Assembly: GCF_057098645.1 (NCBI RefSeq)
Contig: NZ_CM169472.1
Length of the DNA stretch: 64,000 bases
Direction: 5' to 3' (one strand)
Below are positions 11,557 through 63,408 of the stretch, one piece after another. Positions within the stretch are counted from its first letter, which is position 1, and each line of letters opens with the position of its first letter. The notes below the pieces were generated by a model, which was not told the origin of the DNA, did not search any database, and was given only the letters and a program-made list of their open reading frames with translations. The position numbers were made by a program, and so were the translations under genes.

Positions 11557-12141
11557 GTGACGATTAAATTGATTGTCGGCCTGGCGAACCCCGGTGCTGA
11601 ATACGCCGCAACGCGACATAATGCTGGTGCCTGGTTCGTTGACTTACTGGCAGAGCGTTTGCGCGCTCCGCTGCGCGAAGAGGCTAAATTCTTTGGTTAT
11701 ACTTCGCGAGTCACCCTTGGAGGCGAAGATGTCCGCCTGTTAGTCCCGACTACATTTATGAATCTCAGCGGCAAAGCCGTTGCGGCGATGGCCAGTTTTT
11801 TCCGCATTAATCCGGACGAAATTCTGGTGGCCCACGACGAACTGGATCTGCCTCCTGGCGTCGCCAAATTTAAGTTGGGCGGTGGCCATGGTGGTCACAA
11901 TGGACTGAAAGACATCATCAGTAAATTGGGTAATAACCCTAACTTTCACCGTTTACGCATCGGAATCGGTCATCCGGGCGATAAAAATAAAGTTGTTGGT
12001 TTTGTGTTAGGCAAACCGCCTATTAGTGAACAGAAGTTAATTGATGAAGCCATCGACGAAGCGGCGCGTTGTACTGAAATGTGGTTTACAGATGGCTTGA
12101 CCAAAGCAACGAACCGATTGCACGCCTTTAAAGCGCAATAA
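11557..12141 (+). CDS. pth: Peptidyl-tRNA hydrolase
   Basis: 194 aa, GTG start, family motifs (GLANPG, HNG). Confidence 0.95.
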
Positions 12142-12257: not shown

Positions 12258-13349
12258 ATGGGATTCAAATGCGGTATCGTCGGTTTGCCCAACGTCGGGA
12301 AATCTACCCTGTTCAACGCGCTGACCAAAGCCGGTATTGAAGCGGCCAACTTTCCATTCTGCACCATTGAGCCGAACACAGGCGTCGTACCAATGCCTGA
12401 CCCTCGCCTGGATCAACTGGCTGAAATCGTAAAACCGCAGCGTACGCTTCCCACGACCATGGAATTTGTCGATATCGCCGGTCTGGTAAAAGGCGCATCG
12501 AAAGGCGAAGGTCTGGGTAACCAGTTCCTGACCAACATCCGTGAAACCGAAGCGATCGGTCACGTTGTTCGCTGCTTTGAAAATGACAACATCATTCACG
12601 TTTCCGGCAAAGTTAACCCGGCTGACGATATTGAAGTTATCAATACCGAACTGGCGCTGGCAGACCTCGACACCTGCGAACGTGCGATTCATCGCGTACA
12701 GAAGAAAGCCAAAGGTGGCGATAAAGACGCGAAAGCTGAGCTGGCGGTCCTGGAAAAATGCCTGCCCCAGCTGGAAAACGCAGGTATGCTGCGCGCGCTG
12801 GATTTAAGCGCTGAAGAGAAAGCGGCTATTCGTTACCTGAGCTTCCTGACGCTAAAACCAACAATGTACATCGCCAACGTCAACGAAGACGGTTTTGAAA
12901 ACAACCCATATCTTGACCAGGTGCGTGAAATCGCGGCGAAAGAAGGTTCTGTTGTGGTTCCGGTTTGTGCTGCTGTTGAAGCAGACATTGCCGAACTGGA
13001 CGACGAAGAACGTGACGAGTTTATGCAGGAGCTTGGGCTTGAAGAGCCGGGCCTGAACCGTGTGATCCGTGCCGGTTATAAGCTGCTGAACCTGCAAACT
13101 TACTTCACCGCTGGGGTGAAAGAAGTGCGTGCATGGACCATTCCGGTTGGAGCAACCGCGCCGCAGGCAGCGGGCAAAATCCATACTGATTTTGAAAAAG
13201 GCTTTATCCGTGCACAAACCATCTCGTTTGAAGATTTCATCACTTACAAAGGTGAACAAGGCGCGAAAGAAGCAGGCAAAATGCGTGCAGAAGGTAAAGA
13301 TTACATCGTTAAAGATGGCGATGTGATGAACTTCCTTTTCAACGTCTAA
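12258..13349 (+). CDS. ychF: Ribosome-binding ATPase YchF (Obg-family GTPase fold)
   Basis: 363 aa; P-loop GLPNVGKST. Confidence 0.95.
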
Positions 13350-13404
13350 TTAATTTGTTGTCTCATGAGGTTTCGCTAAATCTCATGAAGAGCGCAAAAG
13401 TATA

Positions 13405-13435
13405 TAAAATCCACGCAATTGCGTGGATTTTTCAT
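13405..13435 (+). terminator. Rho-independent terminator after ychF
   Basis: atccacgcaattgcgtggat perfect hairpin followed by ttttt. Confidence 0.8.
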
Positions 13436-14191
13436 TTCACCGAGTCCTAATCATTCTTGTAACATCCTACACTTTTGTGCTTATTGCCTACAGTGAACCA
13501 CCAGAATAATTAAAGACATCAGTGTTCAGATGACGGATATCTCATTAGTAGTGATATAACGTAAGTTTTTGTTCCACTACACATCACCCCCTTCACAGCT
13601 GATCAATATTGATCACGCTCCAATATGCTGGCGAGAAAAGGACTTACCTGAAGGGTAATATCCCGCAGATAAAGTCCCCGAATAATGAGATTACGTGCGA
13701 TCCTGGCAAGATGAAAATGATAACCAATAGCACGATAATAACGATAGGCCAGAAAACCCATTGACCAAAAATGAATATCGATGTTTTTTGCTTTTTCTTA
13801 TTAGTAATGCAAAAATGGCGCATATTGTTTTTGTTATGCAGATACATCAAGCGAAAATCCCATAACTAATTAGGATTATTACAAAAAATCTTCACCAAAT
13901 TTTTTAACCGCTGTTTGTTGTAATATTTTTGCCATATTCATAGTAACGAATTGGAATAAGTAACGACAACTTAGGGAATAACTCGATCTAAACTCACCTT
14001 TGTAAGGGGGATGTTAAATATATATTAATTCCTGTGTTTCTGATTTTGCCCGGTAATAGAGAATTATTCTCATAGCAGCTCATCATGATTGCACCATACA
14101 AATATCATGATGATAAGAGGATATTATTCATTGACTTAAACAAAATGACAAAATCCATAGACCCATAGCCTGGGTACTATATAGGAGTGGT

Positions 14192-17077
14192 ATGGGCATC
14201 AAACAACACAATGGGAATACCAAAGCCGATCGTCTCGCTGAATTAAAAATCCGTTCGCCCTCAATTCAACTGATAAAATTTGGCGCTATTGGTTTGAATG
14301 CAATTATCTTTTCCCCCCTGCTGATAGCTGCTGATACAGGAAGTCAATATGGCACCAATATTACTATTAATGATGGTGACAGAATTACAGGAGATACCGC
14401 CGATCCATCAGGAAACCTCTATGGTGTAATGACCCCAGCAGGAAACACGCCTGGCAATATCAACTTGGGTAATGATGTCACCGTCAATGTCAACGACGCC
14501 TCTGGATATGCAAAAGGAATCATTATTCAGGGCAAAAACAGCTCCCTGACAGCTAACCGACTCACAGTAGATGTTGTTGGCCAAACCTCTGCCATCGGCA
14601 TTAATTTAATTGGTGACTATACCCATGCTGACTTAGGCACAGGCAGCACCATTAAGAGTAACGATGACGGCATCATTATTGGGCATAGCTCAACACTAAC
14701 AGCCACTCAATTCACCATTGAAAACTCGAACGGTATAGGCCTAACCATCAATGACTATGGCACCAGTGTCGATCTTGGAAGCGGAAGTAAAATCAAGACC
14801 GATGGAAGTACAGGTGTTTATATCGGTGGTCTCAACGGCAATAACGCCAATGGTGCTGCGCGTTTTACGGCGACAGACCTGACAATCGATGTTCAGGGAT
14901 ACAGCGCCATGGGGATAAACGTACAGAAAAACTCTGTTGTCGATCTCGGAACAAACAGTACCATTAAAACCAATGGCGATAATGCTCACGGCCTCTGGAG
15001 CTTTGGCCAGGTTAGCGCGAATGCACTCACTGTTGATGTAACTGGAGCCGCGGCCAATGGCGTCGAAGTTCGTGGTGGTACAACCACTATCGGTGCAGAT
15101 AGCCATATTTCTTCCGCGCAGGGCGGTAGTCTCGTAGCCAGTGGTTCAGACGCGACAATCAATTTTTCTGGCACGGCAGCGCAACGAAACAGCATCTTTT
15201 CCGGCGGTTCTTATGGTGCCTCGGCCCAGACGGCAACGGCTGTTATCAACATGCAAAATACCGATATTACGGTTGATCGTAATGGCAGTCTGGCGCTGGG
15301 TTTGTGGGCGCTCAGCGGCGGTAGAATAACCGGAGACAGTTTGGCTATCACCGGCGCGGCAGGAGCCAGGGGGATTTATGCCATGACCAACAGCCAGATC
15401 GACCTCACGAGCGATCTGGTCATTGATATGAGTACACCCGACCAGATGGCCATCGCAACGCAACATGACGATGGTTATGCCGCCAGCCGCATCAACGCCT
15501 CGGGTCGTATGCTTATCAACGGTAGCGTTCTTTCCAAAGGTGGGCTAATCAATCTGGATATGCACTCTGGGTCGGTTTGGACAGGTTCCTCCCTCAGCGA
15601 TAATGTCAATGGCGGGAAACTGGACGTTGCAATGAATAACAGCGTCTGGAACGTAACAAGTAATTCTAATCTCGACACGCTGGCGCTGAGCCATTCAACT
15701 GTCGATTTTGCCAGCCACGCATCAACTGCCGGCACATTTACCACATTAAACGTAGAGAACCTGAGCGGTAACAGTACCTTTATTATGCGTGCTGATGTTG
15801 TTGGCGAGGGTAATGGCGTTAATAATAAAGGGGATTTATTGAATATCAGCGGGAGTAGTGCTGGTAATCACGTATTGGCTATCCGCAACCAGGGCAGCGA
15901 GGCCACAACGGGAAATGAAGTTCTGACAGTGGTAAAAACCACTGACGGTGCGGCCTCGTTCAGCGCGTCTTCTCAGGTTGAGTTGGGGGGATATCTGTAC
16001 GATGTGCGTAAAAATGGCACTAACTGGGAGCTTTACGCTTCCGGGACAGTTCCGGAACCGACTCCTAATCCTGAACCAACACCGGCTCCCGCTCAGCCTC
16101 CCATAGTCAACCCCGATCCTACGCCTGAACCCGATCCTACGCCTAACCCCACTCCCACACCTAAACCCACCACGACCGCAGATGCTGGCGGCAATTATCT
16201 CAATGTCGGTTACTTATTAAACTATGTTGAAAACCGTACGCTGATGCAACGAATGGGTGACCTGCGAAATCAGAGTAAAGACGGTAATATCTGGCTGCGC
16301 AGTTATGGGGGAAGCCTGGACTCCTTCTCCAGTGGCAAACTGAGCGGCTTTGACATGGGTTACAGCGGTATCCAGTTTGGTGGGGATAAACGTCTCTCTG
16401 ATGAAATGCCGTTGTATGTCGGTCTGTATATTGGCTCAACACATGCATCGCCGGACTATAGCGGAGGCGACGGTACCGCACGTTCAGACTATATGGGAAT
16501 GTACGCCAGTTACATGGCACACAGCGGTTTTTACAGCGATCTCGTTGTAAAAGCATCGCGCCAGAAAAATAGTTTCCACGTACGGGACAGTCAGAACAAC
16601 GGCGTTAACGCCAACGGCACTGCGAATGGATTGAGCATCTCCCTGGAAGCCGGGCAGAGGTTCAACCTGACCCCTACTGGTTATGGGTTCTATATAGAGC
16701 CGCAAACCCAGCTCACATACAGCCACCAGAATGAGATGGCTATGAAGGCGAGTAATGGTCTCAATATACATCTGAATCACTACGAATCGCTGCTGGGGCG
16801 TGCCAGCATGATACTAGGATATGACATCACCGCAGGTAAAAGCCAGCTGAATATCTATGTGAAGACTGGCGCTATCCACGAGTTTTCAGGGGATACAGAA
16901 TATCTGTTGAACAACTCCCGGGAGAAGTACAGTTTCAAAGGTAATGGCTGGAATAATGGCGTGGGAGTCAGTGCACAGTATAACAAACAGCACACATTCT
17001 ACCTCGAAGCGGATTACACGCAGGGTAACCTCTTTGATCAGAAGCAAGTCAACGGAGGATATCGCTTCAGCTTTTAA
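14192..17077 (+). CDS. ycgV: Autotransporter adhesin (pertactin-like passenger, Pro/Thr-rich linker, C-terminal beta-barrel)
   Basis: 961 aa; linker PEPTPNPEPTPAPAQPPIVNPDPTPEPDPTPNPTPTPKPTT; C-terminal ...GGYRFSF; preceded by an ~840-bp AT-rich region. Confidence 0.85.
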   Translation: MGIKQHNGNTKADRLAELKIRSPSIQLIKFGAIGLNAIIFSPLLIAADTGSQYGTNITINDGDRITGDTADPSGNLYGVMTPAGNTPGNINLGNDVTVNVNDASGYAKGIIIQGKNSSLTANRLTVDVVGQTSAIGINLIGDYTHADLGTGSTIKSNDDGIIIGHSSTLTATQFTIENSNGIGLTINDYGTSVDLGSGSKIKTDGSTGVYIGGLNGNNANGAARFTATDLTIDVQGYSAMGINVQKNSVVDLGTNSTIKTNGDNAHGLWSFGQVSANALTVDVTGAAANGVEVRGGTTTIGADSHISSAQGGSLVASGSDATINFSGTAAQRNSIFSGGSYGASAQTATAVINMQNTDITVDRNGSLALGLWALSGGRITGDSLAITGAAGARGIYAMTNSQIDLTSDLVIDMSTPDQMAIATQHDDGYAASRINASGRMLINGSVLSKGGLINLDMHSGSVWTGSSLSDNVNGGKLDVAMNNSVWNVTSNSNLDTLALSHSTVDFASHASTAGTFTTLNVENLSGNSTFIMRADVVGEGNGVNNKGDLLNISGSSAGNHVLAIRNQGSEATTGNEVLTVVKTTDGAASFSASSQVELGGYLYDVRKNGTNWELYASGTVPEPTPNPEPTPAPAQPPIVNPDPTPEPDPTPNPTPTPKPTTTADAGGNYLNVGYLLNYVENRTLMQRMGDLRNQSKDGNIWLRSYGGSLDSFSSGKLSGFDMGYSGIQFGGDKRLSDEMPLYVGLYIGSTHASPDYSGGDGTARSDYMGMYASYMAHSGFYSDLVVKASRQKNSFHVRDSQNNGVNANGTANGLSISLEAGQRFNLTPTGYGFYIEPQTQLTYSHQNEMAMKASNGLNIHLNHYESLLGRASMILGYDITAGKSQLNIYVKTGAIHEFSGDTEYLLNNSREKYSFKGNGWNNGVGVSAQYNKQHTFYLEADYTQGNLFDQKQVNGGYRFSF

Positions 17078-17176: not shown

Positions 17177-19096
17177 TCATACCCGGCGCTTAAACTGCCC
17201 TGCATCAATGCCATGTTGCTTCATTTTCCGCCACAGCGTAGTGCGGCCGATTCCAAGTAAAGCCGACATTTCCTGAATGCGACCGCCTGTGACCTGGGCT
17301 GCGTTAATAATTGCCTCTTTTTCAACTTCCGCAAATGACAGACTGGTGGAAAGGCGTGTGGCGCTGACATCATCTGTTGCCTGCTCGGTAAACAGATGTT
17401 CCGGCAAATCACTGACGCGAATGCGCCCATTATCACTACTCAGAGCAAGATTCTCGATGACGCTGTAAAGTTCAAAATCGTTGCCAGGCCATGCACAGGA
17501 AACCAGGCGAGCGAGGGCATCGTCATCAATTTTCAGCCGCGTAGAGAAGCGTTTTTCAAGACTGCGTAATTTGTTATTCACCAGAGCCGGAATGCTGCCA
17601 CGCCGCATACGCAGAGGCGGGATGGTAATTTCAAATGCATGCAGCGCGTAATACAGCTGGCGACTAAAACGATTTTGTTCCACCAGCATTGCGAGGTCCG
17701 CGGTCGTTGTGGCAATCACTTTGACATCAATTGGTATTAAACGCCGCGCATCCAGTCGCGTGATAACACCCTGCTTGATAACCTGAAGCAAAGCAGACTG
17801 TAACTCCACCGCCAGATATTCAATCTTTTCAAGAAACAGCGTGCCGCCGTGCGCCAGTTCCAGCCGACTCAGACGGCCATTTTCATTGTCCGTGCGATCG
17901 CCGCCAATAAATTCTTCCGCCAGCACCGCATCACCATATAACTCACAATTGACGGCGATATAAGGACCTGCAGCACGCTCGCTTTCATTATGAATTGCCT
18001 GACTTAACAGTGCCTTGCCCACGCCCTCTTCTCCACAAAGCAGGACAGGAAAGCTACTGCGCGCTGCCTGGCGACCAAAATGAATCAAGCGGCGGGTTTG
18101 CGGATCGTCCTGTGGCATATGAGCGAAGGTATGGCTGACTTTTCCTAATTGACTGGTCATTAACTGCCGCATCTGTTCCACAGGATGGAGCAACAAAATA
18201 AAGCTGGTTCCCTGCGTTTCTATTATCGGTTTAAGGGTTATCACCGCATCAATAAACTGGTGCTGGCTTTCAAAGGTTGCTTCTACGTGTTTGAGCGGAT
18301 GTGCCTGTTTTATTGCTTGTTGCAATACGGCGGGTAACGTTAAGAGTTCAGTGATTGCCCGTCCCTGACTTGCCGTCGCGTCAAGGCGCAAGACCCGCGC
18401 CGCCTGGGCATTAATAAATTGCAAATTACCCTGCTCGTCCCAGCTAATCACGCCATCATCCATACTTTCTAACAGGGCATTAAGTTGATTTAAATGACGG
18501 TTAGTTTCAGCGAGCAAACTGTCCGTCAGCAGTAAATTACCGACCTCGCGGGCGATTGCCAACGTCAACGGCAAATCAGCTGCGGTAGTTTGCTCAACCG
18601 GACACGCCAGCGCTATTGTTCCCGTCAATCGGCCCTTGCTGTCAAACAACGGCGTTGCACAAAAGGCCCAGTTCCAGAGTGCCTGTTTGAAATGTTGATC
18701 GGCCATCGTTTTCACGGCCTGACCAGAGATAGCCGCTAACGATAGCGCACAAGTACCAATAATTCCCTCGGCGCAATACGTGCCGTCATTGAATCCCAGT
18801 GCACTTAGCTGCTGCAAGGTTTGCGGATCGCCATTACGGCTGAGAATGCAGGCGGTTTCATCGAGGATAAACAGCGCACACTCTCGCGGTGCCATATATT
18901 CCCAGGCATCTTCCAGAGCAGCCTGCCCGAGCGTCAGCATCGCTTTCTTACGCCGATAAATAGAAGCAAATGTCACGCCCTGGGCCTGATGTGGTACGTT
19001 CCATGTCTCCCGTTTCATCAGCTTATTGCATCGCTCCCAGGAGGTTGCAATTAAGGGAGATATGCCCCGACCATCGTTGTTAAAAGCGCCACTCAT
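17177..19096 (-). CDS. dhaR: Sigma-54-type enhancer-binding transcriptional activator of the dha operon
   Basis: AAA+ sigma-54 activator domain, C-terminal HTH; divergent from dhaK; start chosen as MSGAFNN (ORF extends to 19105). Confidence 0.85.
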   Translation of the reverse strand: MSGAFNNDGRGISPLIATSWERCNKLMKRETWNVPHQAQGVTFASIYRRKKAMLTLGQAALEDAWEYMAPRECALFILDETACILSRNGDPQTLQQLSALGFNDGTYCAEGIIGTCALSLAAISGQAVKTMADQHFKQALWNWAFCATPLFDSKGRLTGTIALACPVEQTTAADLPLTLAIAREVGNLLLTDSLLAETNRHLNQLNALLESMDDGVISWDEQGNLQFINAQAARVLRLDATASQGRAITELLTLPAVLQQAIKQAHPLKHVEATFESQHQFIDAVITLKPIIETQGTSFILLLHPVEQMRQLMTSQLGKVSHTFAHMPQDDPQTRRLIHFGRQAARSSFPVLLCGEEGVGKALLSQAIHNESERAAGPYIAVNCELYGDAVLAEEFIGGDRTDNENGRLSRLELAHGGTLFLEKIEYLAVELQSALLQVIKQGVITRLDARRLIPIDVKVIATTTADLAMLVEQNRFSRQLYYALHAFEITIPPLRMRRGSIPALVNNKLRSLEKRFSTRLKIDDDALARLVSCAWPGNDFELYSVIENLALSSDNGRIRVSDLPEHLFTEQATDDVSATRLSTSLSFAEVEKEAIINAAQVTGGRIQEMSALLGIGRTTLWRKMKQHGIDAGQFKRRV

Positions 19097-19323
19097 ATCC
19101 CGCATCCCTTATGACAAAAGGTGTTCCGGCTCGCAATTTTAAGTATTAATACACGTAAAAGTTTCAATATGGAACATTCATTAAAGCATATGTTTCACTA
19201 TGAAACATAATTTGGGCTAATTTTCTTTTCCCTTGCCTGATGCACAATGGATTCATCGGCAGTCAGTGGTCGCCGTGTCGTTGAACATCATCCATGCCCT
19301 ACCGTAATTGCTGGAGCAAAATA

Positions 19324-58542: not shown

Positions 58543-61093
58543 TCAGAACTTATATTTCAGGCCCACCATCACTGCGGTGTCATTGTAGCCATTATCACCC
58601 AGCTGCACGCCCACATTACCCCAGACGCTGGCCGCCGGATTCAGATTGCCATTTACGCCAAGTTTAATTTCCCCCAGATTACGCGCCCCCTCTTGTTCGA
58701 CTTTCACACCGTTCATTGAGACAGCAAAATCTTTACTGTTATGGATCCAGTTCATTTCAACAAAAGGTTCAAAGTCGTCACCGTGCGGACCGCTGTTTTT
58801 CTCCTGAGTACGAATAAAAGTGCGGAAACCAAGTCGGGTCTGGATGTTGTTATTTGCGTCATTCTCAATACGTGAGCCATTGGCTTCGGTGTGCGCATTA
58901 TGATCGACGCCCATCCAGATAGCCTGTGCCTGTGGCTGGAAGATCCACGTATATTTCGCCGCTTCCAGACCAAAGGATTTATTCAGGGCAAAGCCGTAAC
59001 CCGCTTCCAGCGAGACGGTTGCGCCTTTCGCGCTATAGGATTCATAGGCTAATTCATCCCCTTTCACCGAGTTTTTAAACCAGCTATATTGCGCCCAGGC
59101 GTCAATGTATGCGCCTTTTTTACTGATGTCATCGGCAAACCAGGTGGCATACAGCCCTGCGCTATAGCCTCTGACACTCCCTTTCGAACGATAATCCGAC
59201 ACGCTGGAATGAGTTGAGTTGTAGTCGCGGGCATAACCAGCCATCACTCCCAAACGCCAACTGTCACTGTCGGTAAAACCACCGGTTAACAGATCGGCCC
59301 CTAACTGCGAGACGTAGCGATGCGAGGTCGTTCTCAACTGTCCGTTGCTGTCACGCCAGGCATTATGCCCGCCAATTTGACGTAGCCAAAGTCGGCTTGA
59401 ACGCTCCTGTTCAGTTACAGGATCGATGTAACGCGTTTCACCTGCACGATCGTTCAGACGCATAACAAAAAGAGTGTTAGCGGCTGCCAGGTTGGCGACG
59501 TAACTTCCAGCTTCGGGGCGCAGGACGGGGGTAGGCGCAACAGTAGGCGCTGAACTTCCTCCGGAGTTTGTTTCACCGCCGCTCGTTGCCTGGAAGTTAG
59601 TCAGATACCAGTTTTTATTGGTCGCTTCGGTATTACCTCGGGTTAATGAATATTCGTAGGCACCGGCGAAAATCCTCGAATCCTTAATAAATTCTCCATT
59701 TGATTCCCCCTCAACGCTGATAATCTCTATCCCATTTAACGTATAAGCCCCGCTGCCGCCAGCATTGGTAACTTTAACTCGGGTTGTTCCAGAGGTATTT
59801 CCATTAATAACGACTTTATCCGTAGCTGAATTATCATCACCCAATTCAGTTCTGAGATGCAATACGCCATTATTACCAACGTAATTTTCAGTTATTGTTA
59901 ATCTTGTTGGTTCGAAATCCTTTCCATCTGCCCGGGAAATATAGACCGTACTATTGTCAACCGTGAGCTTGCTCACCGTTGAGTCAGCTTTAATATCCCA
60001 GGTACTATTATCTGAAAGCGACAGATAGGTATGAGTGTTATCATCTGTTGAAAGATTGGCTGAACCCGTTATTTTTGAATCAGTTGCATAGACGGTCAAA
60101 TGACCTTTAATATTATTGATAAAAACATCTGCAGCCGATGATACCTCACTATCAGTAATGGTCACGTTACTCGTCTCATTTTTATTGTAGAGGATTTCAT
60201 TTGCTGACCGTAGTGAGCTACCAGATAAAATATCTACCGTTGCTTCCTGACCATTTATGGAAGACTCCAGCACAACTCCAGCCCCCTGATGCGCGACTGC
60301 AAATGTATTTTTCAGCGTCACCGTGCCGCCATTATAAATTTTAGCAATCGCGGCGTCAGGACCCGTTGTATAAATTTCTCCCTGGTTAAATGAAACTGTC
60401 CCCTGGCGAGCAGCGATGGCATGAGCATTGTCCCCAACTTTCTGTTCCGTGGGTTGTTATCTCCCCTTTTGCCATATCCAGTATTGCTTTGGCGCTATTT
60501 TCATTATTTCCTGTATCGGCAGTGCTTTCTTCATCAAGAGAAGATACACACGCACGAGCGCTTCCGGGAGATGCACACGCAAGAACGCCGACTGCGTGAT
60601 TACCCGCAGTAACAATAAAAGTATTATCTCCGTCAGAAAAAGAGGGGGTAACCGAACCGTCAGAGTTGACTCTTATTATGGTATCAGTATTCAGGTTTCC
60701 ACTCGTTTGACTTAGCAAACCAATTGAGTAATCCCCCGTTGTGACAATCGTATTATTACCCCGCAAAGTGACAGCACCGCCATATTCACTTACGACTGCG
60801 CTAGCTGTATATGCTTTGCTTAGAGGACTATTGTCAGAAGGATATAAACCGCCCGTTGTTACAATGACGCCATTGTTAATGGCTAAATTGCTACCCTCTC
60901 CTGCAACGGATACACCGTAACTTCCATTACCCGTTGTTATAACTAGCGCATTATCAATATCTTTTACTTCTCCATCTTTTATTTCCACAGCATGTTTATA
61001 CTCATCGTGATGAATAAACTAATCAGCATATGCATTACCCACCGCCAGAGCAATAAGTCCTAAACTAAACCCGGGGAGTTTTTTCAGTTTCAT
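58543..61093 (-). pseudogene. ycgH: Autotransporter (ycgH-like) with in-frame TAG after the signal peptide and a frameshift
   Basis: ATG 61093 then signal peptide MKLKKLPGFSLGLIALAVGNAYAD then TAG at 61019-61021; ORF 60386-60988 is in the same frame; ORF 58543-60321 is in a different frame; C-terminal beta-barrel ...VGLKYKF. Confidence 0.75.
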
Positions 61094-61492
61094 AGATTAA
61101 CCATCCATTCATTGGATTAACAAACATTCCTGGTCAAATAACCTATGAGTTCAGATTACCAAAACGGAGGGTAAAGACAAAAACAAAAGCACAAAAAATT
61201 TAAATAGATAAACAGCGACAATATATAAATGATAAATAAGTCGGCATTATCATTTTTCACCTTATTTTCATGACATTGATCACTTTGAGGTGACGATTTT
61301 GTTTAACAAATAACTCTTCGACATCAAAATTATTAATAGTTGCCATGGTAATTATTTTGATGATATATAAAAACAACTGTGATAACACCAGGGTTGACAA
61401 CTATTTGCGCAATAATTCCTTTCCTTCAATGATCCAGGCGTTCACTGTCAGCACCCCATTCAGCCGCATACTGACAGTGAGAAACTGAAAGA

Positions 61493-61711
61493 TTATTGCT
61501 GATCCCTGTGGCTGACGAGTCTTTCCCTTAATCGATTAACCAGATTGATCGCCAGCCAAACAAGGGCATTAAGCAAATTTATCGTCACAAGCACTTCTCC
61601 CAGCCCGGTACTGGGTTTTGCAATAAGGATGACCAGGAGAGTGATCAGCATAAATGCAATGGAAAAGATGATATAGAGAGTGAAATAATCCAGATTATTA
61701 CTATTGTTCAT
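61493..61711 (-). CDS. ymgF: Small inner-membrane protein YmgF
   Basis: 72 aa from ATG 61711 (MNNSNNLDYFTLYIIF...). Confidence 0.8.
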   Translation of the reverse strand: MNNSNNLDYFTLYIIFSIAFMLITLLVILIAKPSTGLGEVLVTINLLNALVWLAINLVNRLRERLVSHRDQQ

Positions 61712-61842
61712 GCTACTAATGGCAATCCTGTCAAAACTTTCAAACAATTATAGCAAACAAAATAATGAACAATAGTAACAAGAGGCAACGAGCTAATTAG
61801 CTGTCTATAATTACACCGCACTATGGCCTTACTGATCGATTT

Positions 61843-63408
61843 TCACTCAACCACAACCTTCACCTTCGGTTTAGAAAGGATAATTTTGACCAGGTCGATG
61901 TATGTAACAGGTTTATAGAAATAATAACCCTGCTGAAATGTGATATTATTTTGGTTCAGATAATCAAGTTGTTCTTTCGTTTCGACACCTTCAGCGACGA
62001 TACTGATCGAAAGTTTACGCGCCAGATCCAATACACAATCCAGAATTCGGGTTGATTCTGGGTCTGCATTGACGCGGCCAACGAAACTGTGATCAATTTT
62101 GATATAATCAATATGCAGGTCATGCAGATAAGAAAGCCCTGAGTAGCCAGTACCGAAATCATCCAGCGCGATGACAAAACCATTTTCATGCAGAATGTTC
62201 AACCGCTGAACCAGACTTTCATCAACATTTAATGGCTCACGCTCGGTAACTTCCAGAACGAGGTTTAAATCGCGGCGGGTAAAACTGTCACGGTAATTTA
62301 AGCACTCGTCGACAAACGTCGGCGAAATAATATGCGAGGCGCTAAAATTAATTCCAACATGAAAACCTTCCGGCAATTTACTCGCGATAGCGTTCATCTG
62401 TCTGGCAACCTGATTCATCAGGCTTTGCGTAAGCGGAACGATTAATCCGGATTTTTCAGCAAGTGGAATAAATGCCGCGGGTGAAATATATCCACCGTGA
62501 GGTTGTTTCCAGCGGGCTAACACCTCAACTCCCCGCAATGTCCCTTCCCGACCATTCACCACTGGTTGGTAAAAAGGGACGATCTCCCCATTATTTATAG
62601 CCCGCCGCAGGATCTCTTCAGGCGTTGCGCTTTTATTGAAATACCTATCTAGCAGGAAGGCAGCGGCGCAGGCGATTAACAGAATAAAGATCAAAATCCC
62701 AAAGCCTTTATCGATAAGTCTGTAGAAGCTAAAGAGTGGCGGCGAGTTAAAGATAATAGTGAAATGATATTTTGTGGAGTGAACCTTCTCGGTATAGGGA
62801 TAATGTCCATTAAGCGTCATCACATCACCCGTAGGTCCAATAATGTCATCCGCCACGCGTAATACATACCTTACCCCTTTCAAGGGTACATTAAGCGCCC
62901 CGCGAATATGCTGATCACTTATCGTAACCAAAATGCGCGTATCTGCAAATTGGCTCTGATAGAGCAGGATAGGTAATCTATTAACGGTGTCGATTGCCGG
63001 AGCCAACAGTAAATTACTGTCCGGGAAAACAGGAATACGAGACAGCAGGACCCGATTCCCCGGTAAGGATGTACACCAGACCGTTCCCTGTTTGAGAATG
63101 ATGATTGTGCGCAGGTGAGGTTTCAGAGCTGCTTCAGTGCCAAGCTGATATTGCTCCTCGAGGTCGCATTCCTTCCCGGCAATGTTAACCGCTGTTTGAG
63201 TCGCCTGTGACGCTTCTTCAAGTATATGATTGATATTGTTGGCGGCATATCTTGCTCCCGCCAGGTACTCTGCTTTTGCGGAATACCAGAGCTGGATGTT
63301 CAAAATAGCGACACCGGTAATAAACAAGCATATCGCAACGAGGATGGGTATGAGTGTATTGCGCATTTGCTTGTCCCGGCCAAAGGGTTTAATACATGAA
63401 AATGCCAT
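61843..63408 (-). CDS. pdeG: c-di-GMP phosphodiesterase, membrane-anchored with periplasmic sensor domain and EAL domain
   Basis: 521-aa ORF (start may be internal); EAL-type motifs (EVLARW..., DDFGTGYS). Confidence 0.8.
   Translation of the reverse strand: MAFSCIKPFGRDKQMRNTLIPILVAICLFITGVAILNIQLWYSAKAEYLAGARYAANNINHILEEASQATQTAVNIAGKECDLEEQYQLGTEAALKPHLRTIIILKQGTVWCTSLPGNRVLLSRIPVFPDSNLLLAPAIDTVNRLPILLYQSQFADTRILVTISDQHIRGALNVPLKGVRYVLRVADDIIGPTGDVMTLNGHYPYTEKVHSTKYHFTIIFNSPPLFSFYRLIDKGFGILIFILLIACAAAFLLDRYFNKSATPEEILRRAINNGEIVPFYQPVVNGREGTLRGVEVLARWKQPHGGYISPAAFIPLAEKSGLIVPLTQSLMNQVARQMNAIASKLPEGFHVGINFSASHIISPTFVDECLNYRDSFTRRDLNLVLEVTEREPLNVDESLVQRLNILHENGFVIALDDFGTGYSGLSYLHDLHIDYIKIDHSFVGRVNADPESTRILDCVLDLARKLSISIVAEGVETKEQLDYLNQNNITFQQGYYFYKPVTYIDLVKIILSKPKVKVVVE

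What the first reader, a model, noticed from the sequence alone, without database searches (positions are those of the whole stretch)
13436..14191. Long AT-rich region upstream of the autotransporter adhesin ycgV
About 750 bp of roughly 30% GC DNA precedes an intact 961-aa autotransporter adhesin. Such regions are typical of nucleoid-protein (H-NS) silenced surface-adhesin loci. The region contains only low-complexity ORFs (e.g. 13644-13850) that are unlikely to be coding, and it may hold regulatory sites or a small RNA.
Basis: inference. Interest (0 to 1): 0.25.

Follow-up and report, generated by a model that had tools for sequence, protein, structure and literature searches.

The report
Known H-NS-bound region upstream of ycgV
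The AT-rich stretch in front of the E. coli adhesin gene ycgV is real, but it is an already catalogued H-NS-bound "promoter island" that travels with the gene, and it hides no convincing extra gene or small RNA.

Summary
Window 13436-14191 has 35.4% GC, the lowest-GC 756-bp stretch in the 64-kb window. Only its right-hand core reaches about 30%.

The region has two parts:
- 13438-13753 (40.8% GC) is E. coli-specific junction DNA. It carries a ~65-115 bp relic of an IS6-family transposase gene. It also carries a 75-bp deletion polymorphism (13628-13702) whose K-12-type junction is found in about 1,990 of 5,426 complete genomes.
- 13754-14191 (31.7% GC) belongs to the ycgV cassette. A Citrobacter genome carries the same upstream module plus gene in a different chromosomal context.

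The K-12 orthologue of 13734-14034 (98.7% identical) is one of 78 published E. coli "promoter islands". That paper scores it as H-NS-bound in all the ChIP-chip studies it compiled. The proximal 126 bp (14066-14191) match a published YbdO EMSA probe.

The 68-aa minus-strand ORF (13644-13850) shows no coding signature. Alleles carry frameshifts and a lost stop codon, pN/pS is no better than in control frames, and it is absent from Citrobacter. No Rfam family, internal terminator or significant RNA structure supports a small RNA.

Verdict: a real feature, correctly interpreted, already known, of low interest.

The parts
13350..13437 (+). ychF 3' UTR with a bidirectional intrinsic terminator (perfect 13+13 nt hairpin at 13406-13431). 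This is core-genome DNA and forms the left boundary of the feature.
   Evidence: Terminator scan and inverted repeat I2. Divergence among 6 alleles is 0-1.2%. Homology to B2 genomes covers only 13352-13438.
13438..13753 (.). E. coli-specific junction DNA (GC 40.8%) between the ychF terminator and the ycgV cassette. It contains the most variable stretch of the region, 13451-13607.
   Evidence: GC. Divergence reaches 7.8% in 13436-13627. There is no counterpart in the Citrobacter locus.
13600..13615 (.). Perfect 16-bp palindrome TGATCAATATTGATCA with two GATC sites. Function unknown; K-12 has one mismatch.
   Evidence: Read from the sequence and the allele alignment. My rough estimate is about 0.03 such palindromes expected by chance in this region and about 1 in 64 kb, so it is not compelling.
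13628..13702 (.). 75-bp insertion/deletion polymorphism. It is present here and deleted in K-12. It is bounded by the 9-bp direct repeats CTGGCGAGA (13628-13636) and CTGGCAAGA (13703-13711).
   Evidence: Alignment. The K-12-type deletion junction is found in about 1,990 of 5,426 complete genomes.
13633..13746 (+). Relic of an IS6-family transposase gene covering the region around the catalytic E. The DNA-significant core is 13662-13726. It lies in the frame of the + strand ORF 13609-13764. No IS ends remain.
   Evidence: blastn gives 83% over 65 bp to the IS6-family tnp of a Serratia plasmid (E 2e-8 against 7.3 Gb) and 79% to two Salmonella plasmids. tblastn gives 54% over 24 aa, E 1e-3 against the whole window. 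Flanks are not significant at the DNA level. Pfam does not detect it. There is no GGCACTGTTGCAAA terminal repeat in the region.
13644..13850 (-). 68-aa ORF (67 aa from its ATG) with one hydrophobic stretch, antisense to the IS6 relic. Judged to be spurious.
   Evidence: It is restricted to E. coli and Shigella. Variants include a stop-loss (84 aa), frameshifts (77, 80 and 81 aa) and the 75-bp deletion (59 aa). There are non-conservative changes (P35 to H/L, G29 to D/E). pN/pS equals that of control frames. I see no good Shine-Dalgarno sequence. There is no Pfam hit.
13754..14191 (+). AT-rich (31.7% GC) upstream module that belongs to the ycgV cassette. It presumably holds the ycgV promoter(s) and 5' UTR.
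   Evidence: 60% identity over 461 columns to the region upstream of the Citrobacter ycgV homologue, E 8e-24. In Citrobacter the cassette sits between a porin gene and an unrelated downstream gene, and homology ends at the ycgV stop codon.
13734..14034 (.). Orthologue of the published K-12 'promoter island' 1255333_301 (ycgV/ychF). This is the H-NS-bound core, at 30.6% GC.
   Evidence: Coordinate mapping at 98.7% identity. PMC3661553 Table 1 gives H column 'A', bound in all studies.
13915..13944 (+). Candidate distal ycgV promoter: TTGTTG, 18-nt spacer, CATAGT. K-12 has TATAGT at the -10. This is an inference only.
   Evidence: It aligns with a near-consensus TTGACA-17-TATAGT in Citrobacter at L010 3218-3246. 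It is too weak to be picked up by the consensus scan. No TSS data could be retrieved.
14066..14191 (+). Proximal 126 bp, equivalent to the published YbdO EMSA probe. It contains a perfect 10-nt inverted repeat, TCATCATGAT (14080-14089) and ATCATGATGA (14104-14113), that is, two copies of the palindrome ATCATGAT.
   Evidence: The primer sequences in PMC11681634 map to 14066-14085 and 14172-14191, and the product size of 126 bp matches. Inverted repeat I6. The segment folds with z = -2.2, not significant across 12 tests.
14192..17077 (+). ycgV, an intact 961-aa classical autotransporter adhesin. Its Shine-Dalgarno AGGAG is at 14183-14187.
   Evidence: pN/pS is about 0.2 among alleles. The gene is 80.5% identical at DNA level to the Citrobacter homologue.

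Best explanation
The region is the AT-rich control region of the accessory adhesin gene ycgV. It is kept largely silent by the nucleoid protein H-NS (xenogeneic silencing).

It has two parts. The right 438 bp (13754-14191, 32% GC) is part of a mobile ycgV cassette. It holds the gene's weak promoter(s), a probably long 5' UTR and the site(s) bound by the repressor YbdO. Its AT-richness makes it a platform on which H-NS, and non-productive RNA polymerase, accumulate. This is the published 'promoter island'. The left ~315 bp (13438-13753, 41% GC) is non-functional junction DNA left from the cassette's arrival downstream of the ychF terminator. It includes a fossil of an IS6-family transposase gene and is being eroded by deletions.

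The short ORFs are by-products of AT-rich sequence, not genes.

What is shown: the composition, the boundaries, the cassette homology, the IS6 relic, the lack of a coding signal, and (from the literature) H-NS occupancy and YbdO binding in K-12 and APEC orthologues. What is inferred: that H-NS actually represses ycgV transcription in this strain, the position of the promoter, and a role for an IS6-family element in delivering the cassette.
For: - Composition: lowest-GC stretch of the window. A/T tracts of 4 or more occur at 22.5 per kb against 10.7 per kb window-wide, in the top 2.3% of windows.
- Published data for the orthologue, which is 98.7% identical. It is one of 78 promoter islands, is H-NS-bound in all compiled ChIP-chip studies, and is flagged as foreign by one of the compiled predictors (Nakamura et al.) (PMC3661553).
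- YbdO represses ycgV 3-4 fold and shifts the proximal 126-bp probe (PMC11681634).
- An RNAP-sigma32 genomic SELEX peak lies in the same spacer (PMC5493296).
- Accessory behaviour: the region is present at >=80% coverage in 4,094 of 5,426 genomes. In ST131/B2 an integrase island follows the ychF terminator and ycgV is not seen in the 5 kb fetched. In strain HH45 it has decayed to fragments.
- The upstream module and gene are shared with a Citrobacter genome in a different context.
- IS6 relic.
- Divergence among alleles in the region (1-8%) is similar to synonymous divergence in the flanking genes (2-7%), so most of it evolves near neutrally.
- No annotated gene in RefSeq or the curated K-12 record.
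- ORF tests were negative, as were RNA tests.
Against: - I found no hns-mutant expression data for ycgV in the searchable literature, so silencing as opposed to occupancy is inferred.
- A simple sigma70 consensus scan does not show more promoter-like sites than composition-matched shuffles (3 against 4.6 +/- 2.1), and none falls inside 13733-14033. The 'island' property therefore depends on the PlatProm algorithm and on AT-richness itself.
- There is no match within 2 mismatches to the H-NS high-affinity 10-mer TCGATAAATT in 13436-14191.
- Predicted static curvature and AA/TT phasing are not elevated (the wedge parameters were recalled from memory).
- ycgV itself has average GC (49.5%), so a foreign-DNA signature is confined to the upstream module.
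- ChIP and EMSA data come from K-12 and APEC alleles, not this O145-like allele, which differs by 1-4% and by the 75-bp indel.
Confidence: 0.8

Rival explanations
1. The region hides an unannotated, lineage-specific small membrane protein gene: the 67/68-aa minus-strand ORF 13644-13850, transcribed divergently from ycgV.
For: - The ORF is open in 5 of 6 aligned alleles and has a plausible single transmembrane stretch.
- Gene callers have predicted it in many E. coli and Shigella assemblies, and some sources name it 'membrane protein'.
- The N-terminal 48 codons survive even the K-12 deletion, which is in frame.
Against: - There are 93 clusters at 90% identity within one species, with lengths of 49-103 aa.
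- Common alleles have lost the stop codon (84 aa) or carry C-terminal frameshifts. There are non-conservative substitutions in and next to the hydrophobic stretch.
- pN/pS of 0.42 cannot be told apart from control frames at 0.30 and 0.38, whereas ychF is 0-0.03 and ycgV about 0.2.
- I see no convincing Shine-Dalgarno sequence upstream of the ATG at 13847.
- It is absent from the Citrobacter orthologous region.
- It has no Pfam family and is not in the curated K-12 annotation.
- It runs antisense through a transposase relic, which suggests a chance origin.
Confidence: 0.06
2. The region encodes a small regulatory RNA or a structured cis-regulatory leader.
For: - The 5' UTR of ycgV may be long if the distal promoter candidate is used.
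- The proximal 131 nt fold somewhat better than shuffles (z = -2.2), driven by a perfect 10-nt inverted repeat.
Against: - No Rfam hit comes near a gathering score. The only hits with E<0.01 are terminator-like matches at the ychF terminator.
- There is no intrinsic terminator inside the region on either strand.
- Eleven of 12 tiles have |z| below 2, and the one exception is not significant after correcting for 12 tests.
- The inverted repeat is not conserved in Citrobacter.
- Sequence evolves at about the synonymous rate.
Confidence: 0.04
3. The region is a phase-variation switch for ycgV. It would be Dam/GATC-dependent like agn43 or pap, or an invertible promoter like fimS.
For: - YcgV is an Ag43-like adhesin. 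One preprint reports altered 6mA at ycgV after laboratory evolution.
- There are four GATC sites, two of them in a perfect palindrome at 13600-13615.
- Imperfect inverted repeats flank 108 bp at 13799-13942.
Against: - By my estimate the GATC count (4) is close to the ~2.7 expected from composition.
- The palindrome lies about 580 bp upstream of the ATG, in the non-conserved junction DNA, and is imperfect in K-12.
- The GATC at about 13985 is lost in K-12.
- The flanking inverted repeats are only 78% complementary, and there is no recombinase gene nearby.
- The listed full-length BLAST matches are single collinear pieces, or two pieces explained by the 75-bp deletion. No inverted orientation was seen.
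Confidence: 0.03
4. The AT-richness has no silencing role. The region is neutral spacer plus an ordinary weak promoter, and H-NS occupancy is incidental to base composition.
For: - Near-neutral divergence.
- No excess of consensus promoters over shuffles, no high-affinity H-NS motif, and no predicted curvature.
- The left third is demonstrably junk: an IS relic and a common deletion.
Against: - The AT-rich module has stayed linked to ycgV across genera with recognisable homology.
- H-NS occupancy is reproducible in all the ChIP-chip data sets compiled by the promoter-island paper.
- From my own knowledge of Roux et al. 2005, cited in PMC3796261, ycgV is cryptic under laboratory conditions.
- A specific repressor binds the proximal part.
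Confidence: 0.12

Closest known systems
E. coli 'promoter islands' (Shavkunov et al. 2009; Panyukov & Ozoline 2013, PMC3661553), specifically island 1255333_301 ycgV/ychF of K-12 MG1655
   Same: It is the same locus. Window 13734-14034 is 98.7% identical to the K-12 island. It is AT-rich (30.6% GC), lies upstream of a gene flagged as foreign, and is H-NS-bound in all ChIP-chip studies compiled in that paper.
   Different: This allele retains the 75 bp that K-12 has lost further upstream, outside the island. It also has CATAGT instead of TATAGT at the candidate -10. I could not reproduce the high promoter density with a simple consensus scan, and PlatProm was not available.
H-NS xenogeneic silencing of cryptic E. 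coli adhesin loci, such as cryptic chaperone-usher fimbriae and other H-NS-repressed surface-structure operons (general knowledge)
   Same: An AT-rich upstream region, a gene that varies in presence between strains, an adhesin that is cryptic under laboratory conditions, and H-NS occupancy.
   Different: Direct evidence that hns deletion de-represses ycgV was not found in the searchable literature. The ycgV coding sequence itself is not AT-rich (49.5% GC).
agn43 (flu) regulatory region: Dam/OxyR phase variation of an Ag43-type autotransporter
   Same: It lies upstream of a related classical autotransporter adhesin, and GATC sites are present.
   Different: There is no cluster of three GATC sites over an OxyR-type operator near the promoter. 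The GATC pair lies about 580 bp upstream in non-conserved DNA.
IS6/IS26-family insertion sequences
   Same: Window 13662-13726 is 83% identical in DNA to the part of an IS6-family transposase gene that encodes the catalytic-E motif region.
   Different: Only about 65-115 bp survive. There is no intact ORF, the E residue is replaced, there are no terminal inverted repeats, and Pfam does not detect it. It is a fossil, not an element.

Membership tests
Promoter island / H-NS-bound xenogeneic-silencing region | Markedly AT-rich relative to the genome over at least 300 bp | tested here: met
   GC is 30.6% over 13734-14034 and 35.4% over 13436-14191, against 49.6% for the window. This is the lowest 0.16% of sliding windows.
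Promoter island / H-NS-bound xenogeneic-silencing region | H-NS occupancy in vivo (ChIP) | not testable with these tools
   Published for the K-12 orthologue, which is 98.7% identical: marked 'A', bound in all compiled ChIP-chip data sets (PMC3661553 Table 1). Primary tables could not be retrieved.
Promoter island / H-NS-bound xenogeneic-silencing region | Abnormally high density of predicted transcription start points (PlatProm: at least 8 per 100 bp over at least 300 bp) | tested here: inconclusive
   PlatProm is not available. A simple sigma70 consensus scan gives 3 sites in 1.1 kb against 4.6 +/- 2.1 in shuffles. That is 4.0 per kb against 1.0 per kb window-wide, but none falls within 13733-14033. 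TANNNT hexamers occur at 50 per kb against 24 per kb.
Promoter island / H-NS-bound xenogeneic-silencing region | Association with a horizontally acquired or accessory gene | tested here: met
   Presence/absence polymorphism among 5,426 genomes. In B2 an integrase island follows ychF and ycgV is not in the 5 kb fetched. A decayed remnant in HH45. The same cassette in a different context in Citrobacter. An IS6 relic at the cassette edge.
Promoter island / H-NS-bound xenogeneic-silencing region | De-repression of the downstream gene when hns is deleted | not testable with these tools
   No hns-mutant data for ycgV were found.
Small membrane protein gene | ORF maintained intact, with purifying selection (pN/pS well below that of out-of-frame controls) | tested here: not met
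   Stop-loss, frameshift and deletion alleles are common. pN/pS is 0.42 against 0.30-0.38 in two control frames.
Small membrane protein gene | Homologues beyond the species, or conservation in the orthologous locus of other genera | tested here: not met
   All 93 hits with a source name are E. coli or Shigella. It is not conserved in the Citrobacter region. There is no Pfam family.
Small RNA gene | Match to a known RNA family, or a promoter plus intrinsic terminator bracketing a structured, conserved transcript | tested here: not met
   No Rfam hit near a gathering score. No internal terminator. Fold z-scores are unremarkable.
IS6-family insertion sequence | Intact DDE transposase ORF (Pfam DDE_Tnp_IS240) | tested here: not met
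   Only about 24-38 codons are alignable and Pfam finds nothing.
IS6-family insertion sequence | 14-bp terminal inverted repeats GGCACTGTTGCAAA | tested here: not met
   They are present in the Serratia reference element. None lies within the region even at up to 3 mismatches.

The most novel reading that the evidence does not exclude
The minus-strand 67/68-aa ORF (13644-13850) is a young, E. coli/Shigella-restricted 'proto-gene' for a small membrane protein. On this reading it arose antisense to a decayed IS6 transposase fragment and is transcribed out of the H-NS-bound promoter island when silencing is relieved.
Probability: 0.05. Interest if true: 0.4.

Novelty: already known. Interest (0 to 1): 0.12.

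Why it matters
It matters little beyond housekeeping. The locus is a textbook-style example of an AT-rich, H-NS-occupied control region in front of a cryptic, strain-variable adhesin, and it is already catalogued for K-12.

The small additions made here are useful mainly for annotation and for anyone designing ycgV promoter constructs:
- The truly AT-rich part is a 438-bp module that moves with ycgV between genera.
- The remainder is junction debris with an IS6-family transposase fossil.
- A 75-bp deletion is carried by roughly half of the ycgV-bearing genomes.

They also give a modest illustration that a silencer or promoter region can travel with its gene as one cassette.

Tried and rejected
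- **H-NS high-affinity motif (TCGATAAATT).** No match within 2 mismatches in 13436-14191. At up to 3 mismatches the density is 13 per kb against 8.9 per kb, which is uninformative.
- **Intrinsic curvature and AA/TT phasing.** I used a Bolshoy-type wedge model with parameters recalled from memory. The region mean is 5.7 degrees per turn against 6.0 window-wide. The only peak at or above the 99th percentile between 12000 and 16000 is at the ychF terminator. Periodicity is below the shuffle mean. This is rejected as an explanation for H-NS binding, with the caveat about the parameters.
- **Promoter density by consensus scan.** Not enriched over shuffles.
- **Rfam.** Only sub-threshold, terminator-like hits at the ychF terminator.
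- **RNA folding of 12 tiles.** Nothing is significant after multiple-test correction.
- **Pfam on the conceptual translations of the IS6 relic.** No hit. DNA-level extension of the relic beyond 65 bp is not significant.
- **Published TSS and ChIP primary tables.** The Cappable-seq supplement was truncated before this locus. The Kahramanoglou supplements are not held. The Thomason 2015 paper is not held. The 'b1202' text search returned noise.
- **Pho box.** Considered because ycgV is up 4-fold in an APEC pst mutant. By eye I saw no convincing tandem CTGTCAT repeat. This was not tested formally.
- **GTDB representative-genome scan with the YcgV N-terminus.** It gave only one true orthologue, a Citrobacter MAG, plus two E. 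coli contaminant contigs. Phylogenetic footprinting therefore rests on a single outgroup.
- **Phage collection.** No similarity.

Full report
**Setting**

The window is E. coli. The stretch 13350-14191 is 100% identical to O145:H28 str. RM12761 and is found at >=80% coverage in 4,094 of 5,426 complete E. coli genomes.

The local gene order is:
- pth (11557-12141, +)
- ychF (12258-13349, +)
- an 842-bp intergenic region
- ycgV (14192-17077, +)
- dhaR (17177-19105, -)

ycgV is an intact 961-aa ORF with Pertactin and Autotransporter beta-domains. RefSeq/PGAP records and the curated K-12 record NC_000913.3 annotate nothing between ychF and ycgV.

**Check of the observation**

The flagged interval 13436-14191 has 35.4% GC, against 49.6% for the window, 51.0% for ychF and 49.5% for ycgV. 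Only 0.16% of 756-bp sliding windows are as low, and the window-wide minimum starts at 13401.

"Roughly 30%" is correct only for the core. 13734-14034 is 30.6% and 13754-14191 is 31.7%, whereas 13438-13753 is 40.8%.

The left coordinate is a real boundary. A perfect 13+13-nt terminator hairpin sits at 13406-13431. Homology to phylogroup-B2 genomes, where an integrase island follows ychF and ycgV is not seen in the 5 kb fetched, stops at about 13438.

**Anatomy**

Aligning six E. coli alleles and the one orthologous locus found outside E. coli, a Citrobacter MAG whose YcgV N-terminal 400 aa are 78% identical, splits the region in two.

*Left part, 13438-13753: E. coli-specific junction DNA.*
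- It contains the most variable stretch, with up to 7.8% divergence in 13436-13627.
- It contains a perfect 16-bp palindrome with two GATC sites at 13600-13615 (imperfect in K-12).
- It contains a 75-bp indel at 13628-13702, bounded by the 9-bp direct repeats CTGGCGAGA and CTGGCAAGA.
- K-12 carries the deletion. Its junction sequence is present in about 1,990 of 5,426 genomes, roughly half of those that have the region.

A distant blastn search against plasmids gave an unexpected hit. Window 13662-13726 is 83% identical (E 2e-8 in 7.3 Gb) to an internal part of an IS6-family transposase gene on a Serratia plasmid. It is 79% identical to the same part of related transposase genes on two Salmonella plasmids.
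- In the + strand frame, QIKSPNNEITCDPGKMKMITNSTI aligns with QIKYRNNVIECDHGKLKRIISATL, the region around the catalytic E. Identity is 54%, and this is the only tblastn hit of that transposase in the whole 64-kb window (E 1e-3).
- By eye, ungapped similarity continues for about 38 codons (13633-13746).
- Beyond the 65-bp core, DNA similarity is not better than in shuffles.
- Pfam does not detect the fragment.
- No IS6 terminal repeats remain.

This is a fossil of an IS6-family element, not an element. The K-12 deletion removes about two-thirds of its 65-bp core.

*Right part, 13754-14191: part of the ycgV cassette.*
- It aligns to the 457 bp upstream of the Citrobacter homologue at 60% identity over 461 columns (E 8e-24).
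- Homology then continues through the gene at 80.5% and ends exactly at the stop codon.
- In Citrobacter the cassette lies between a porin gene and an unrelated downstream gene, not between ychF and dhaR.
- The AT-rich module therefore moves with the gene. The IS6 fossil sits immediately to the left of the module's edge. This is consistent with IS-associated delivery but does not prove it.

**What is already published about it**

Panyukov & Ozoline 2013 (PMC3661553) list 78 "promoter islands" in K-12 MG1655 (U00096.2). These are regions where PlatProm predicts at least 8 start points per 100 bp over at least 300 bp. One of them is 1255333_301, ycgV/ychF.
- I mapped it to window 13734-14034 at 98.7% identity.
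- In their Table 1 it carries "A" in the H-NS column, meaning H-NS-bound according to all compiled ChIP-chip studies (Grainger; Kahramanoglou; Oshima).
- It is also flagged as associated with a foreign gene by one of the compiled predictors (Nakamura et al.).
- The paper reports that such islands bind RNA polymerase and form open complexes but yield little full-length RNA.

Other published data on this spacer and on ycgV:
- Yu et al. 2024 (PMC11681634) report that the regulator YbdO represses ycgV 3-4 fold in an APEC strain and shifts a 126-bp promoter probe. The primers map to window 14066-14191.
- A sigma32-RNAP genomic-SELEX peak is reported in the same spacer (PMC5493296).
- ycgV rises 4-fold in an APEC pst mutant (PMC2648988).
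- Overexpression studies link YcgV to adhesion and biofilm (Roux et al. 2005, cited in PMC3796261). That ycgV is cryptic under laboratory conditions is from my own knowledge of that paper.

I found no hns-mutant expression measurement for ycgV. Primary ChIP and TSS tables were not retrievable.

**Tests of hidden genes**

*The minus-strand ORF 13644-13850* (68 aa, or 67 aa from its ATG) has one hydrophobic stretch and has been called by gene finders in many assemblies. The evidence is against it being a gene:
- All named hits are E. coli or Shigella.
- They form 93 clusters at 90% identity, with lengths of 49-103 aa.
- Retrieved variants include a common stop-loss form (84 aa), C-terminal frameshifts (77, 80 and 81 aa), the 75-bp-deletion form (59 aa), homopolymer frameshifts, and non-conservative changes such as P35 to H/L and G29 to D/E.
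- Nei-Gojobori pN/pS summed over four allele pairs is 0.42 in the ORF frame. Two control frames of the same interval give 0.38 and 0.30. For comparison, ychF gives 0-0.03 and ycgV about 0.2.
- The ORF is not preserved in Citrobacter.
- It has no Pfam match, and I see no convincing Shine-Dalgarno sequence.

*For RNAs:*
- No Rfam match approaches a gathering score. The best hits are terminator-like hits on the ychF terminator.
- There is no internal intrinsic terminator.
- Of 12 folded tiles, only 14061-14191(+) reaches z = -2.2. This is driven by the perfect inverted repeat TCATCATGAT/ATCATGATGA at 14080-14113, which is not conserved in Citrobacter. It is not significant after correcting for 12 tests.

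**Physical and sequence predictors of H-NS binding**

- A/T tracts of 4 or more are twice as frequent as in the window (22.5 against 10.7 per kb; top 2.3% of windows).
- There is no near-match to the high-affinity motif TCGATAAATT.
- Neither predicted static curvature nor 10-11-bp AA/TT phasing is elevated (wedge parameters recalled from memory).
- A plain sigma70 consensus scan finds no more sites than composition-matched shuffles.

H-NS occupancy here is therefore best attributed to AT-richness as such, not to a special bend or nucleation site. The "promoter island" label depends on the original algorithm.

**Promoter inference**

The Citrobacter module contains a near-consensus TTGACA-17-TATAGT at L010 3218-3246. 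It aligns with window 13915-13944, which reads TTGTTG-18-CATAGT (K-12 has TATAGT). If this promoter is used, the ycgV leader would be about 240 nt. This is inference only.

**Evolutionary rate**

Divergence among E. coli alleles in the region (1-8% by sub-region) is comparable to synonymous divergence in ychF and ycgV (2-7%). The exception is the terminator segment at 0-1.2%. Within the species there is little sign of constraint beyond the neutral rate. The sample is only six alleles.

**Verdict**

It is also already in the literature for K-12. The additions here are the two-part anatomy, the cassette homology with Citrobacter, the IS6-family fossil, the frequency and mechanism of the 75-bp deletion, and negative evidence for a hidden protein or RNA gene. 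Novelty: already known. Interest: low (0.12).

Noticed in passing
window 47000-48400: The second-lowest-GC stretch of the window (about 47301-48127, GC <=38%) covers hlyE and the hlyE-umuD junction. From my own knowledge hlyE is a classic H-NS-silenced gene, so this is probably the same kind of feature.
   Followed up: partly
window 60300-62300: A third low-GC stretch (about 60581-62047) overlaps another autotransporter adhesin gene ('ECIAI39_1904 family') next to pdeG and ymgF. Only 1,779 of 5,426 genomes cover >=80% of it, so it is another variable, AT-rich adhesin locus.
   Followed up: partly
L002 4843-8785 (RM12761), L006 2341-3840 (F070), L004 5074-5540 (HH45): ycgV is often inactivated in other strains even though the upstream region is kept. 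RM12761 has it truncated, with an IS3-family transposase fragment and a group II intron (ltrA) following. F070 has an internal stop. HH45 retains only scraps of the proximal promoter and an internal ycgV fragment. In this window ycgV is intact.
   Followed up: partly
L003 5088-6386 (ST131-type strain Ecol_AZ159): In B2/ST131 genomes a P4-type tyrosine integrase (Arm-DNA-bind_3, Phage_int_M and Phage_integrase domains) and an island with IS elements start immediately after the ychF terminator. This is the same junction where the ycgV region begins here, so the site downstream of ychF looks like an insertion hotspot.
   Followed up: partly
L010 1761-7746 (Citrobacter sp. MAG HRGM_Genome_0066): The ycgV cassette (upstream module plus gene) sits between a general porin gene (Pfam Porin_1) and a 265-aa ORF that I recognise by eye as MtfA-like (not tested). 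A very AT-rich stretch (20-24% GC) lies upstream of the porin gene at L010 about 1500-1800.
   Followed up: no
window 14080-14113: Two copies of the 8-bp palindrome ATCATGAT, 22 bp apart, together form a perfect 10-nt inverted repeat. They lie inside the 126-bp fragment equivalent to the published YbdO EMSA probe. They are invariant in six E. coli alleles but not conserved in Citrobacter. This is a possible operator, untested.
   Followed up: partly
window 13600-13615: Perfect 16-bp palindrome TGATCAATATTGATCA carrying two Dam sites. Its translation (INIDHAP) weakly resembles the INTDKAP motif of IS6 transposases in another frame (E 0.33), so it may be more of the IS fossil rather than a binding site.
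   Followed up: partly
within ycgV; K-12 U00096.3 1253715-1253731, not mapped to window coordinates: A published sigma54 ChIP-seq study lists an intragenic sigma54 binding site (TTGGCTCAACACATGCA) inside ycgV (PMC4591121). A GalR in-silico site is also listed inside ycgV (PMC5110547).
   Followed up: no
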